From NCBI RefSeq assembly GCF_003334255.1, contig NZ_QOWU01000009.1: a stretch of 64,000 bases of DNA; one strand, 5' to 3'. The position numbers and the translations under genes are program-made. Positions 27,184 through 27,809 of the stretch are shown piece by piece (position 1 is the first letter of the stretch; each line of letters opens with the position of its first letter). The notes beneath the pieces are model-generated. The model did not search any database. It saw only the letters and a program-made list of their open reading frames with translations, and had not been told where the DNA came from. This DNA comes from Escherichia coli (GTDB lineage Bacteria > Pseudomonadota > Gammaproteobacteria > Enterobacterales > Enterobacteriaceae).

Positions 27184-27498
27184 ATGGATGACACCAGCCG
27201 GGACCCGGCAATAACCGAAGATGAAATCAGGGCGCTGCAATTTTCTGCCGGGGATGTAGCGGAAATAGAGCAGACGATTCTCTCTTTTGTCGATGCCTGC
27301 CACACCCGTAAAGTGGCGATGGTGGTGGGTAGCACCATTAACACCCTCAAAGATCGCGATGGTAAACGGTGGGGAAACCTGCCGGATATTTATTGCGCTT
27401 ATCTTATCCGATGTCTGGTTTTTCGCGGGGAATTAGTGGGATACGGCGATTTGTTTCGTATGCGCTATAGCGAAATTAAGCGACCGGTTACCTTATGA
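27184..27498 (+). CDS. yjeN: Uncharacterised protein YjeN
   Basis: ORF track 104 aa, recognised as YjeN; no known function. Confidence 0.8.
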   Translation: MDDTSRDPAITEDEIRALQFSAGDVAEIEQTILSFVDACHTRKVAMVVGSTINTLKDRDGKRWGNLPDIYCAYLIRCLVFRGELVGYGDLFRMRYSEIKRPVTL

Positions 27499-27809
27499 GT
27501 GCGCGCATGTTTGTCTTATGCTGCATCTGGTTTATTGTGGCGTTCCTCTGGATAACCATCACTTCCGCGCTGGACAAAGAGTGGATGATTGATGGACGCG
27601 GGATTAACAACGTCTGCGATGTGTTGATGTATCTCGAAGAAGACGATACCCGTGATGTTGGTGTGATAATGACGTTACCGCTCTTTTTCCCTTTTCTCTG
27701 GTTCGCTTTGTGGCGAAAAAAACGCGGCTGGTTTATGTACGCCACCGCGCTGGCTATTTTCGGCTACTGGCTGTGGCAGTTTTTTCTGCGCTATCAGTTT
27801 TGTTTGTGA
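27495..27809 (+). CDS. yjeO: Uncharacterised inner-membrane protein YjeO
   Basis: ORF track 104 aa; hydrophobic segments; start overlaps yjeN stop (ATGA). Confidence 0.8.
   Translation: MSARMFVLCCIWFIVAFLWITITSALDKEWMIDGRGINNVCDVLMYLEEDDTRDVGVIMTLPLFFPFLWFALWRKKRGWFMYATALAIFGYWLWQFFLRYQFCL

What the first reader, a model, noticed from the sequence alone, without database searches (positions are those of the whole stretch)
27184..27809. Overlapping pair of 104-codon genes of unknown function, yjeN-yjeO
Two equal-length small ORFs are coupled by an ATGA start/stop overlap between the yjeM transporter gene and the convergent mscM channel gene. YjeN is soluble-looking and acidic; YjeO is hydrophobic with predicted membrane helices. 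A two-gene coupled module of soluble and membrane partner with no assigned function is a candidate for a small regulatory or toxin-like pair.
Basis: partly seen in the sequence, partly recalled or inferred. Interest (0 to 1): 0.35.

Follow-up and report, generated by a model that had tools for sequence, protein, structure and literature searches.

The report
Orphan T6SS immunity gene plus partner
The two overlapping small genes are real, but they are not an obligate pair: yjeO looks like a leftover "antidote" gene against a cell-wall-attacking toxin that rival gut bacteria inject, and yjeN is a separate small winged-helix protein of unknown role that sits where the toxin gene sits in related bacteria.

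Summary
Observation confirmed. yjeN (27184-27498) and yjeO (27495-27809) are two 104-codon ORFs with an ATGA overlap, between yjeM and the convergent mscM. Both are under purifying selection (dN/dS 0.04-0.19).

- YjeO is Pfam DUF2645.
- In all eleven genomic contexts examined across ten genera, a DUF2645 gene abuts or overlaps the 3' end of a 232-238-aa gene. That gene has no signal peptide and no Pfam match, but carries lytic-transglycosylase-like motifs.
- The two-gene cassette is AT-rich and mobile. It lies next to hcp in five contexts, including E. coli hcp-X-ygiZ.
- In Citrobacter and Enterobacter the 236-aa gene occupies exactly the yjeN slot.

I therefore read yjeO as an orphan immunity gene of a type VI secretion (T6SS) effector-immunity module. 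K-12 ygiZ would be a second one.

YjeN is restricted to Escherichia and Salmonella. It is unrelated to the effector and is predicted to have a winged-helix fold.

The genes are not co-conserved. Of 5426 E. coli genomes, about 2150 have both, about 870 have yjeO only and about 2400 have neither. Salmonella commonly keeps yjeN alone. At least five independent deletions are visible.

The effector fold and a deep search for YjeN relatives could not be run because the remote machine was down.

The parts
27184..27498 (+). yjeN CDS, 104 codons. Small cytoplasmic protein with a predicted winged-helix fold, found only in Escherichia and Salmonella.
27495..27809 (+). yjeO CDS, 104 codons. DUF2645 inner-membrane protein, proposed here to be an orphan T6SS immunity protein.
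   Evidence: Pfam PF10840, E = 4.3e-41. 47-53% identical to DUF2645 proteins encoded directly after the 236-aa effector in E. coli, Citrobacter, Enterobacter, Cronobacter and Atlantibacter. dN/dS 0.04-0.16.
27495..27498 (+). ATGA start/stop overlap (translational coupling).
   Evidence: The same overlap is present in the divergent E. coli allele L003 and in S. enterica subsp. salamae L010.
27570..27665 (+). Codons 26-57 of yjeO. Acidic loop between hydrophobic segments 1 and 2, inferred to be periplasmic. It carries invariant E29, I32, I37, C41, D50, D51 and R53.
   Evidence: Alignment A7. The loop is 73% identical to the E. coli cognate copy against 44% for the rest of the protein. Topology is inferred from charge distribution: the RKKRG loop at residues 74-78 would be cytoplasmic.
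27174..27177 (+). AGGA Shine-Dalgarno-like motif 7 nt upstream of the yjeN ATG. No comparable motif precedes yjeO.
   Evidence: sequence read directly.
27137..27167 (+). Perfect 13-bp hairpin just after the yjeM stop, with no U tract. It is conserved as the left border of the deletions.
   Evidence: RNAfold gives -25.3 kcal/mol. Retained in L001, L013 and L021.
27802..27837 (.). 14-bp hairpin spanning the yjeO stop up to the mscM stop. Likely a bidirectional terminator of the convergent genes.
   Evidence: RNAfold gives -21.3 kcal/mol.
25630..27132 (+). yjeM (APC-family transporter), the upstream neighbour. An RNA-seq-based (TransGeneScan) operon prediction for E. coli spans yjeM (partial)-yjeN-yjeO.
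27838..31161 (-). mscM, the convergent downstream neighbour and the conserved right border of the variable slot in all Enterobacteriaceae examined.

Best explanation
The yjeM-mscM gap is an old, decaying type VI secretion (T6SS) effector-immunity slot. YjeO would be an orphan immunity protein. It would sit N-in with three membrane helices, a 32-residue acidic periplasmic loop, and a periplasmic C-terminus carrying the second invariant cysteine. From there it would bind and block a 232-238-aa lytic-transglycosylase-like effector that rival Enterobacterales deliver into the periplasm, probably as Hcp cargo. K-12 carries neither this effector gene nor the hcp linked to it elsewhere, so the gene would act only as a shield. 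YjeN is a separate lineage-specific winged-helix protein that occupies the effector's position and keeps the translational coupling to yjeO. Its role is independent of YjeO and unknown. My weak guess is a small regulator or protein-binding adaptor, or a second orphan immunity protein.

Shown here:
- the gene anatomy and purifying selection;
- the presence/absence polymorphism and the deletion scars;
- the invariant pairing of the effector-like gene with DUF2645;
- the hcp adjacency;
- the AT-rich, cassette-like nature of the pair.

Inferred, not shown:
- the immunity function;
- the membrane topology and the disulfide;
- the peptidoglycan-cleaving activity of the partner;
- T6SS delivery.
For: 1. 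Family: YjeO is DUF2645.
2. Pairing: a DUF2645 gene abuts or overlaps the stop of a homologous 232-238-aa gene in Atlantibacter, Cronobacter, C. koseri, Enterobacter, E. coli, Dickeya, Yersinia, Xenorhabdus, Pectobacterium, a Serratia plasmid and E. coli hcp-X-ygiZ.
3. hcp is the immediate neighbour in Dickeya, Xenorhabdus, Pectobacterium, Serratia and the E. coli ygiZ locus.
4. In Citrobacter and Enterobacter the order is epmA-yjeM-effector-DUF2645-mscM. This is the K-12 order with the effector in place of yjeN.
5. The effector family has no N-terminal signal sequence. Its invariant residues are E78 (AxEVGG, or AWIESGG in the distant paralogue), TSxGxxxxQ and RYNRG. UniRef names three members 'Transglycosylase SLT domain-containing protein'.
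6. Cassette GC is 35-41% (effector) and 28-36% (DUF2645), against 42-57% for the surrounding loci.
7. Decay leaves the immunity gene. The effector is pseudogenised or truncated in two of three Atlantibacter species while DUF2645 stays intact. ygiZ stands alone in most E. coli, against the full hcp-X-ygiZ in 1261 genomes. yjeO stands alone in about 870 genomes.
8. The K-12 YjeO loop is 73% identical to the E. coli cognate copy, against 44% elsewhere in the protein. All family-invariant residues, including C41 and C103, are kept.
9. yjeO rose 2.6-fold on sigma-E induction (PMC2731931).
Against: - No experiment or structure supports the immunity role or the enzymatic nature of the partner.
- Pfam, NCBIfam, PADLOC and PDB sequence searches of the effector family are all negative.
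- The AF2 model of the effector could not be made.
- K-12 yjeO has genome-like GC (48%) and has been resident since before the Escherichia/Salmonella split, so it may have acquired another role.
- About 44% of E. coli, including B strains, and many Salmonella lack it without obvious cost.
- In the Yersinia context the pair sits in a P2-like prophage with no T6SS gene nearby.
- YjeN's function is not explained.
Confidence: 0.6

Rival explanations
1. YjeN and YjeO are themselves a cognate pair: a small effector or toxin (YjeN) with its membrane immunity or antitoxin (YjeO). Alternatively, a winged-helix antitoxin (YjeN) with a membrane toxin (YjeO).
For: - YjeN occupies the effector slot with the same start/stop coupling.
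- In E. coli, yjeN is almost never found without yjeO (about 3 genomes), while yjeO without yjeN is common (about 870).
- Three of five deletion events remove yjeN and spare yjeO together with its upstream 13-22 codons.
Against: - Salmonella enterica subsp. enterica widely keeps an intact yjeN after deletion of yjeO. Other lineages keep yjeO alone, so neither gene needs the other as antidote.
- The genome counts rest on only about five events.
- YjeN models as a winged-helix fold, not a known toxin fold.
- There are no PADLOC, Pfam or NCBIfam toxin or antitoxin matches.
- Immunity families normally track one toxin family, and DUF2645 tracks the 236-aa family.
Confidence: 0.12
2. DUF2645 proteins are not immunity proteins. 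They would be membrane partners of a cell-wall enzyme, for example a holin-like or anchor/regulator protein of an endolysin-like enzyme from a phage-derived cassette. K-12 YjeO would then be a housekeeping envelope-stress membrane protein.
For: - The 236-aa family matches phrog_11932 (8e-28).
- The pair sits inside a P2-like prophage in Yersinia.
- An enzyme without a signal peptide next to a small multi-TM protein resembles an endolysin-holin pair.
- yjeO is sigma-E responsive.
- ygiZ is a BglJ-RcsB target, as stated in that paper's abstract listing.
Against: - The Yersinia prophage has its own holin, lysozyme and LysC genes elsewhere, so the pair is a moron.
- tblastn against 50,697 phage records finds nothing.
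- hcp adjacency occurs in five contexts.
- The membrane gene persists intact and under purifying selection after the enzyme is lost. This fits a stand-alone protective role, not a holin.
- The conserved 32-residue acidic loop with a Cys pair is unlike holins, which have short loops and a charged C-terminal tail (established knowledge).
Confidence: 0.13
3. yjeN-yjeO is a functionless remnant on its way to loss, and the ORFs survive only by chance.
For: 44% of E. coli genomes lack both genes. At least five independent deletions are seen. No phenotype is known.
Against: - Both ORFs are intact across Escherichia species and Salmonella with dN/dS 0.04-0.19.
- The C-terminal 40 residues of YjeN are nearly invariant.
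- Transcripts and regulation have been reported.
- IgM against S. Typhi YjeN was seen in challenged volunteers (PMC5609549).
Confidence: 0.1

Closest known systems
T6SS peptidoglycan glycoside-hydrolase effector-immunity pairs (Tge/Tgi, e.g. Tse3-Tsi3; Whitney et al. 2013, as cited) and the SleB-like lytic-transglycosylase effector T6EC3 (PMC11148199)
   Same: A small enzyme without a signal peptide and with an invariant catalytic-type glutamate. The immunity gene lies immediately downstream. The pair is linked to hcp, and the immunity protein faces the periplasm where the cell wall lies.
   Different: The effector family found here has no Pfam or PDB sequence match, and its fold was not tested. 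Tgi immunity proteins are, from memory, soluble periplasmic proteins or lipoproteins, whereas DUF2645 is a three-helix integral membrane protein. At the K-12 locus the effector is absent.
Orphan immunity genes and acquired interbacterial defence clusters (Bacteroidales AID systems and Vibrio cholerae orphan immunity genes; recalled from memory, not read here)
   Same: An immunity gene is retained, intact and under selection, in strains that lack the cognate toxin. The genes accumulate at one chromosomal site. E. coli L021 has the K-12-type yjeO (pseudogenised), IS fragments, the effector and a second DUF2645 at the same slot.
   Different: Here there are only one or two genes, with no recombinase or integron-like machinery, and the genes are vertically inherited at a fixed syntenic site since before the Escherichia/Salmonella split.
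Type II toxin-antitoxin modules
   Same: Two small, translationally coupled genes, one of them with a DNA-binding-type (winged-helix) fold.
   Different: The genes are not co-conserved. There is no known toxin domain. The membrane partner belongs to a family whose constant partner is a different protein.
ygiZ (b3027), the other DUF2645 gene of E. coli K-12
   Same: It belongs to the same Pfam family and shows the same pattern. The full hcp-236aa-ygiZ module is in 1261 of 5426 E. coli genomes (e.g. UTI89), and ygiZ stands alone in K-12 derivatives.
   Different: It is only 28% identical to YjeO. It lies at a different chromosomal site (mdaB-qseC) and has no yjeN-like neighbour.

Membership tests
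Pfam DUF2645 / 'YjeO family' (YjeO) | Significant full-length match to the PF10840 profile | tested here: met
   E = 4.3e-41, residues 6-103 on model positions 1-98 of 98.
T6SS immunity protein (functional class, for YjeO) | Encoded immediately next to a cognate effector gene | tested here: not met
   At this locus the upstream gene is yjeN, which is unrelated to the effector. The feature is met for the DUF2645 family in eleven other contexts. YjeO can therefore only be an orphan member.
T6SS immunity protein (functional class, for YjeO) | Genetic linkage of the pair to T6SS components | tested here: met
   hcp is adjacent in Dickeya, Xenorhabdus, Pectobacterium, a Serratia plasmid and the E. 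coli ygiZ locus. This holds for the family, not for the K-12 window.
T6SS immunity protein (functional class, for YjeO) | Located in the compartment where the effector acts (periplasm) | tested here: inconclusive
   This is sequence inference only. The loop at residues 26-57 is acidic, the RKKRG loop is basic, and C41 and C103 are invariant. No topology experiment was consulted.
T6SS immunity protein (functional class, for YjeO) | Binds and neutralises the effector, and protects recipients in competition assays | not testable with these tools
   Needs toxicity-rescue and competition experiments.
Lytic transglycosylase / lysozyme-like superfamily (SLT, GH23), for the 232-238-aa partner family | Profile match to SLT or related Pfam families | tested here: not met
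   None of the 18 members gives a Pfam match even at E = 0.1. NCBIfam gives none. PDB profile and sequence searches give none.
Lytic transglycosylase / lysozyme-like superfamily (SLT, GH23), for the 232-238-aa partner family | Ordered motifs: catalytic E(S), GLMQ-like, AYNxG-like | tested here: inconclusive
   E78 (AWIESGG in the L037 paralogue), TSxGxxxxQ and RYNRG are invariant. UniRef names three members SLT domain-containing. The motifs were read by eye and not scored.
Lytic transglycosylase / lysozyme-like superfamily (SLT, GH23), for the 232-238-aa partner family | Lysozyme-like fold | not tested
   Structure prediction on A6 or A8 failed 19 times because the machine did not answer.
Type II toxin-antitoxin system | The two genes are co-inherited and neither is stably found alone | tested here: not met
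   yjeO stands alone in about 870 E. coli genomes and in Salmonella L008. yjeN stands alone in many Salmonella.
Type II toxin-antitoxin system | Recognisable toxin or antitoxin domain | tested here: not met
   No Pfam, NCBIfam or PADLOC match for YjeN, and YjeO matches only DUF2645.
Winged-helix fold (YjeN) | Three-helix bundle plus C-terminal beta-hairpin wing, superposable on known WH domains | tested here: inconclusive
Phage holin-endolysin cassette | The pair forms the lysis cassette of a phage, with a holin that has short loops and a charged C-terminal tail | tested here: not met
   In the one prophage context the phage has its own holin, lysozyme and LysC genes, and the pair lies elsewhere. 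There is no hit in 50,697 phage records. YjeO ends in RYQFCL.

The most novel reading that the evidence does not exclude
DUF2645 (YjeO, YgiZ) would be a previously unrecognised integral-membrane immunity family against a widespread, unannotated Hcp-linked cell-wall effector family of Enterobacterales. In addition, YjeN would be a new kind of element that took over the effector slot: either a winged-helix Hcp-cargo effector, or a second orphan immunity or anti-effector protein. The yjeM-mscM gap would then be a miniature, vertically inherited 'immunity island' shared by E. coli and Salmonella.
Probability: 0.12. Interest if true: 0.6.

Novelty: new member of a known kind. Interest (0 to 1): 0.45.

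Why it matters
- It gives two long-standing E. coli K-12 y-genes (yjeO, and in passing ygiZ) a concrete, cheaply testable function: protection against T6SS attack by co-resident Enterobacterales.
- It points to an effector family of about 236 residues that has no Pfam model and that the full-text paper library never links to DUF2645 (no paper mentions DUF2645).
- It explains why the locus is a presence/absence polymorphism in E. coli and Salmonella.
- E. coli B strains (BL21/C43 lineage) naturally lack yjeO. That offers a ready-made sensitive background for the test.

Tried and rejected
- **YjeN as a degraded or frame-shifted remnant of the effector gene.** hhalign probability is 0.13%. Six-frame tblastn against all effector loci finds only true yjeN or its scars. 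Rejected.
- **Family assignment of YjeN.** Pfam, NCBIfam, PADLOC, PHROG and PDB profile searches found nothing. Foldseek AFDB50 found only its own family. tblastn in plasmids found only chromosome-like E. coli replicons.
- **Sigma-E or sigma-70 promoter upstream of or inside yjeN.** No sigma-E consensus was found. One weak sigma-70-like site is at chance level.
- **Known RNA in the gap.** None found.
- **Sequence-level link of the effector family to SLT domains.** Negative.
- **Literature on the hcp-linked effector.** The hcp2B paper concerns a different locus. The T6SS surveys read do not mention this family.
- **Jobs that never ran.** The AF2 model of the effector (19 attempts) and the exhaustive HMM search for YjeN relatives (12 attempts) did not run because the remote machine did not answer.
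- **My early recollection that YjeN resembles DUF3658.** This stays an untested lead. Pfam gives no hit even at E = 10.

Full report
**1. The observation**

The window is the E. coli frd-epmA-yjeM-yjeN-yjeO-mscM-psd region. It is 100% identical over this stretch to K-12 and many other strains.
- ORFs of exactly 104 codons lie at 27184..27498 and 27495..27809 on the + strand.
- The TGA of the first and the ATG of the second share the ATGA at 27495-27498.
- An AGGA motif lies 7 nt before the yjeN start. Nothing comparable precedes yjeO, as expected for translational coupling.
- A perfect 13-bp hairpin (27137-27167, -25.3 kcal/mol) follows the yjeM stop. A 14-bp hairpin (27802-27837, -21.3 kcal/mol) separates yjeO from the convergent mscM.
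- YjeN is hydrophilic with pI 5.33, an acidic N-terminal half and a basic C-terminal half. YjeO is hydrophobic.
- No Rfam family matches, and promoter and terminator scans are at chance level.

**2. Are they genes?**

Yes, both appear to be real genes.
- Both ORFs are intact in several Escherichia species and in Salmonella.
- The 4-nt overlap is kept in a divergent E. coli allele (L003) and in S. enterica subsp. salamae (L010).
- Nei-Gojobori dN/dS is 0.09-0.19 for yjeN and 0.04-0.16 for yjeO. dS is saturated between genera.
- The literature adds a RegulonDB yjeNO operon and a transcript that also includes the end of yjeM (PMC4168707).
- yjeO rose 2.6-fold on sigma-E induction (PMC2731931). 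yjeN fell 8-fold in one array study (PMC1904212).
- IgM against S. Typhi YjeN was seen in challenged volunteers (PMC5609549).

**3. They are not co-conserved**

Counts among 5426 complete E. coli genomes:

| Query | Genomes with at least 80% coverage |
|---|---|
| yjeN | 2153 |
| yjeO | 3021 |
| Both, in one 801-bp query | 2150 |

This gives roughly 2150 genomes with both genes, about 870 with yjeO only, about 3 with yjeN only and about 2400 with neither. The last group includes the B strain C43(DE3).

Alignments show that the reduced states are deletions.
- L001 and L021 keep the last 13-22 codons of yjeN in front of an intact yjeO start.
- E. whittamii L013 has a different junction, so this is an independent event.
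- L002 keeps only codons 5-19 or so of a divergent yjeN.

The same syntenic slot in Salmonella holds several states.
- yjeN alone, very commonly, with the first few codons of yjeO followed by a REP element.
- yjeO alone.
- Both genes, in subsp. salamae.

There are therefore at least five independent deletions: three take yjeN only, one takes yjeO only, and one takes both. The striking E. coli asymmetry (3 against 870) rests on very few events and should not be over-read.

**4. What YjeO is**

YjeO is a full-length DUF2645 protein. It has no NCBIfam, PADLOC or meaningful PHROG match.

A scan of one genome per species found YjeO relatives in Atlantibacter, next to mscM. There the gene is preceded not by yjeN but by a 236-246-aa ORF whose stop abuts the DUF2645 start. 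This ORF is pseudogenised in Atlantibacter sp. RC6 and truncated in A. hermannii, while DUF2645 stays intact.

The 236-aa family is widespread in Enterobacterales (151 clusters). In every context I opened it is followed at once by a DUF2645 gene:

| Context | Gene order |
|---|---|
| Cronobacter | epmA-X-DUF2645-mscM |
| Citrobacter koseri, Enterobacter | epmA-yjeM-X-DUF2645-mscM |
| 45 E. coli genomes | yjeM-(yjeN scar)-(K-12-type yjeO with an in-frame stop)-IS630 fragments-X-DUF2645-mscM |
| Dickeya | hcp-X-DUF2645 |
| Xenorhabdus, Pectobacterium | X-DUF2645, with a convergent hcp next door |
| Serratia plasmid | X-DUF2645, with a convergent hcp next door; annotated 'DUF2645 family protein' and 'Hcp family type VI secretion system effector' |
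| Yersinia | X-DUF2645 as a moron inside a P2-like prophage |
| E. coli, mdaB-qseC site | hcp-X'-ygiZ, where ygiZ is the second DUF2645 gene of E. coli |

The full hcp-X'-ygiZ module is in 1261 of 5426 E. coli genomes, including UTI89. K-12 derivatives and most others keep only ygiZ.

The cassettes are AT-rich. Effector GC is 35-41% and DUF2645 GC is 28-36%, against 42-57% for the surrounding loci.

**5. What the partner looks like**

- The family has no signal peptide.
- Even after adding the 36%-identical hcp-linked paralogue, these residues stay invariant: E78 (AxEVGG, or AWIESGG in the paralogue), T112-S113-x-G115...Q120, and R188-Y-N-R-G192.
- The order and spelling recall the E-S, GLMQ and AYNxG motifs of family-1 lytic transglycosylases. 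That comparison is from my own knowledge.
- UniRef labels three members 'Transglycosylase SLT domain-containing protein'.
- No profile method confirms this.
- The structure prediction that would settle it could not be run.

The enzymatic identity is therefore an inference. The effector-immunity architecture rests on stronger evidence: an enzyme-like protein without an export signal, the invariant small downstream membrane protein, the mobile AT-rich cassette, the hcp adjacency, and loss of the first gene with retention of the second.

**6. How YjeO would work**

K-12 YjeO is 47-53% identical to the cognate DUF2645 proteins of Enterobacteriaceae and 26-28% identical to those of Dickeya, Yersinia and Xenorhabdus. 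It keeps every invariant residue: S24, E29, I32, I37, C41, D50, D51, R53, P66, W94, F96, R99 and C103.

The charge distribution suggests an N-in, C-out topology with three helices.
- The acidic 26-57 loop would be periplasmic.
- The RKKRG loop at 74-78 would be cytoplasmic.
- This would place both invariant cysteines in the periplasm.

The loop is 73% identical to that of the E. coli cognate copy, against 44% for the rest of the protein. It is thus the conserved functional surface.

I infer that the loop binds the incoming effector in the periplasm. K-12 carries neither this effector gene nor the hcp linked to it elsewhere, so yjeO would be purely defensive: an orphan immunity gene. Its genome-like GC (48%) and its presence in both genera show long residence rather than recent acquisition.

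**7. What YjeN is**

YjeN homologues exist only in Escherichia and Salmonella, always in this slot. The C-terminal 40 residues are almost invariant.
- The AF2 model has pLDDT 73.5 and pTM 0.63, from a shallow 11-sequence alignment. It shows helices at 22-39, 44-63 and 68-80, followed by a poorly resolved C-terminal segment.
- Foldseek against AFDB50 finds only its own family.
- YjeN is unrelated to the effector.

Its function remains open. It is retained without YjeO in Salmonella, so whatever it does does not require YjeO.

**8. Deep divergence in passing**

Between S. enterica subsp. enterica and subsp. salamae, dS is 1.3 for yjeN and 2.9 for yjeO, against 0.18 for the adjacent yjeM. Within E. 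coli the values are 0.30 and 0.12-0.22 against 0.05-0.08. The slot therefore carries old alleles or has been exchanged by recombination. This is common for loci involved in inter-strain conflict, but the point is not proven here.

**9. Verdict**

- The 'coupled toxin-like or regulatory pair' reading is only partly supported.
- The best explanation is a decayed T6SS effector-immunity slot, with yjeO as an orphan immunity gene (confidence about 0.6) and yjeN as a lineage-specific winged-helix protein of unknown, YjeO-independent role.
- No paper in the library mentions DUF2645. The ygiZ and yjeO papers found do not mention T6SS.
- This is a new member of a known kind. It is of moderate interest, and bench tests are straightforward.

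Noticed in passing
L037:2989-4520 (E. coli PN43, chromosome-like 'plasmid'). Not in the window; the K-12 equivalent is ygiZ between mdaB and qseC.: A second E. coli DUF2645 gene, ygiZ, is the third gene of an hcp-236aa-ygiZ module. The module is present in 1261 of 5426 genomes (e.g. UTI89). K-12 derivatives keep only ygiZ, so K-12 seems to carry two orphan immunity-like genes.
   Followed up: partly
window 27184-27809 against 25630-27132; L004, L008 and L010: Synonymous divergence of yjeN and yjeO between alleles is several-fold to more than 10-fold higher than that of the adjacent yjeM. For Salmonella enterica vs salamae it is 1.3 and 2.9 against 0.18. For E. coli K-12 vs L003 it is 0.30 and 0.12 against 0.08. 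This suggests ancient alleles or recombinational replacement at this slot.
   Followed up: partly
L021:2419-4000 (E. coli, 45 genomes of this type): The slot can accrete. The order is yjeN scar, K-12-type yjeO with an in-frame TAG, IS630-family fragments (HTH_33/DDE_3), then an AT-rich effector plus a second intact DUF2645 before mscM.
   Followed up: partly
L018, L019, L023 and L024 (Atlantibacter, Cronobacter): These genera lack yjeM altogether, and the effector-DUF2645 pair follows epmA directly. yjeM is therefore also a variable occupant of the epmA-mscM interval.
   Followed up: no
L004:5994-6060 and 6379-6514 (Salmonella): REP-like palindromic elements flank the Salmonella yjeN. The database's 125-aa YjeN model (P0026, also Typhi Q8Z196) starts inside such an element. 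The conserved start is 19 codons further in (MNDSSRD).
   Followed up: partly
window 25588-25630: The longest ORF for yjeM starts at GTG 25588. RefSeq and all orthologues start at the ATG at 25630 (MPHTIKK). The upstream extension is probably not translated.
   Followed up: no
L027:5001-6013 (Yersinia enterocolitica): The effector-DUF2645 pair rides as a moron inside a P2-like prophage, between tail and baseplate genes. This is consistent with the PHROG hit (phrog_11932) and suggests phage-mediated spread of the cassette.
   Followed up: no
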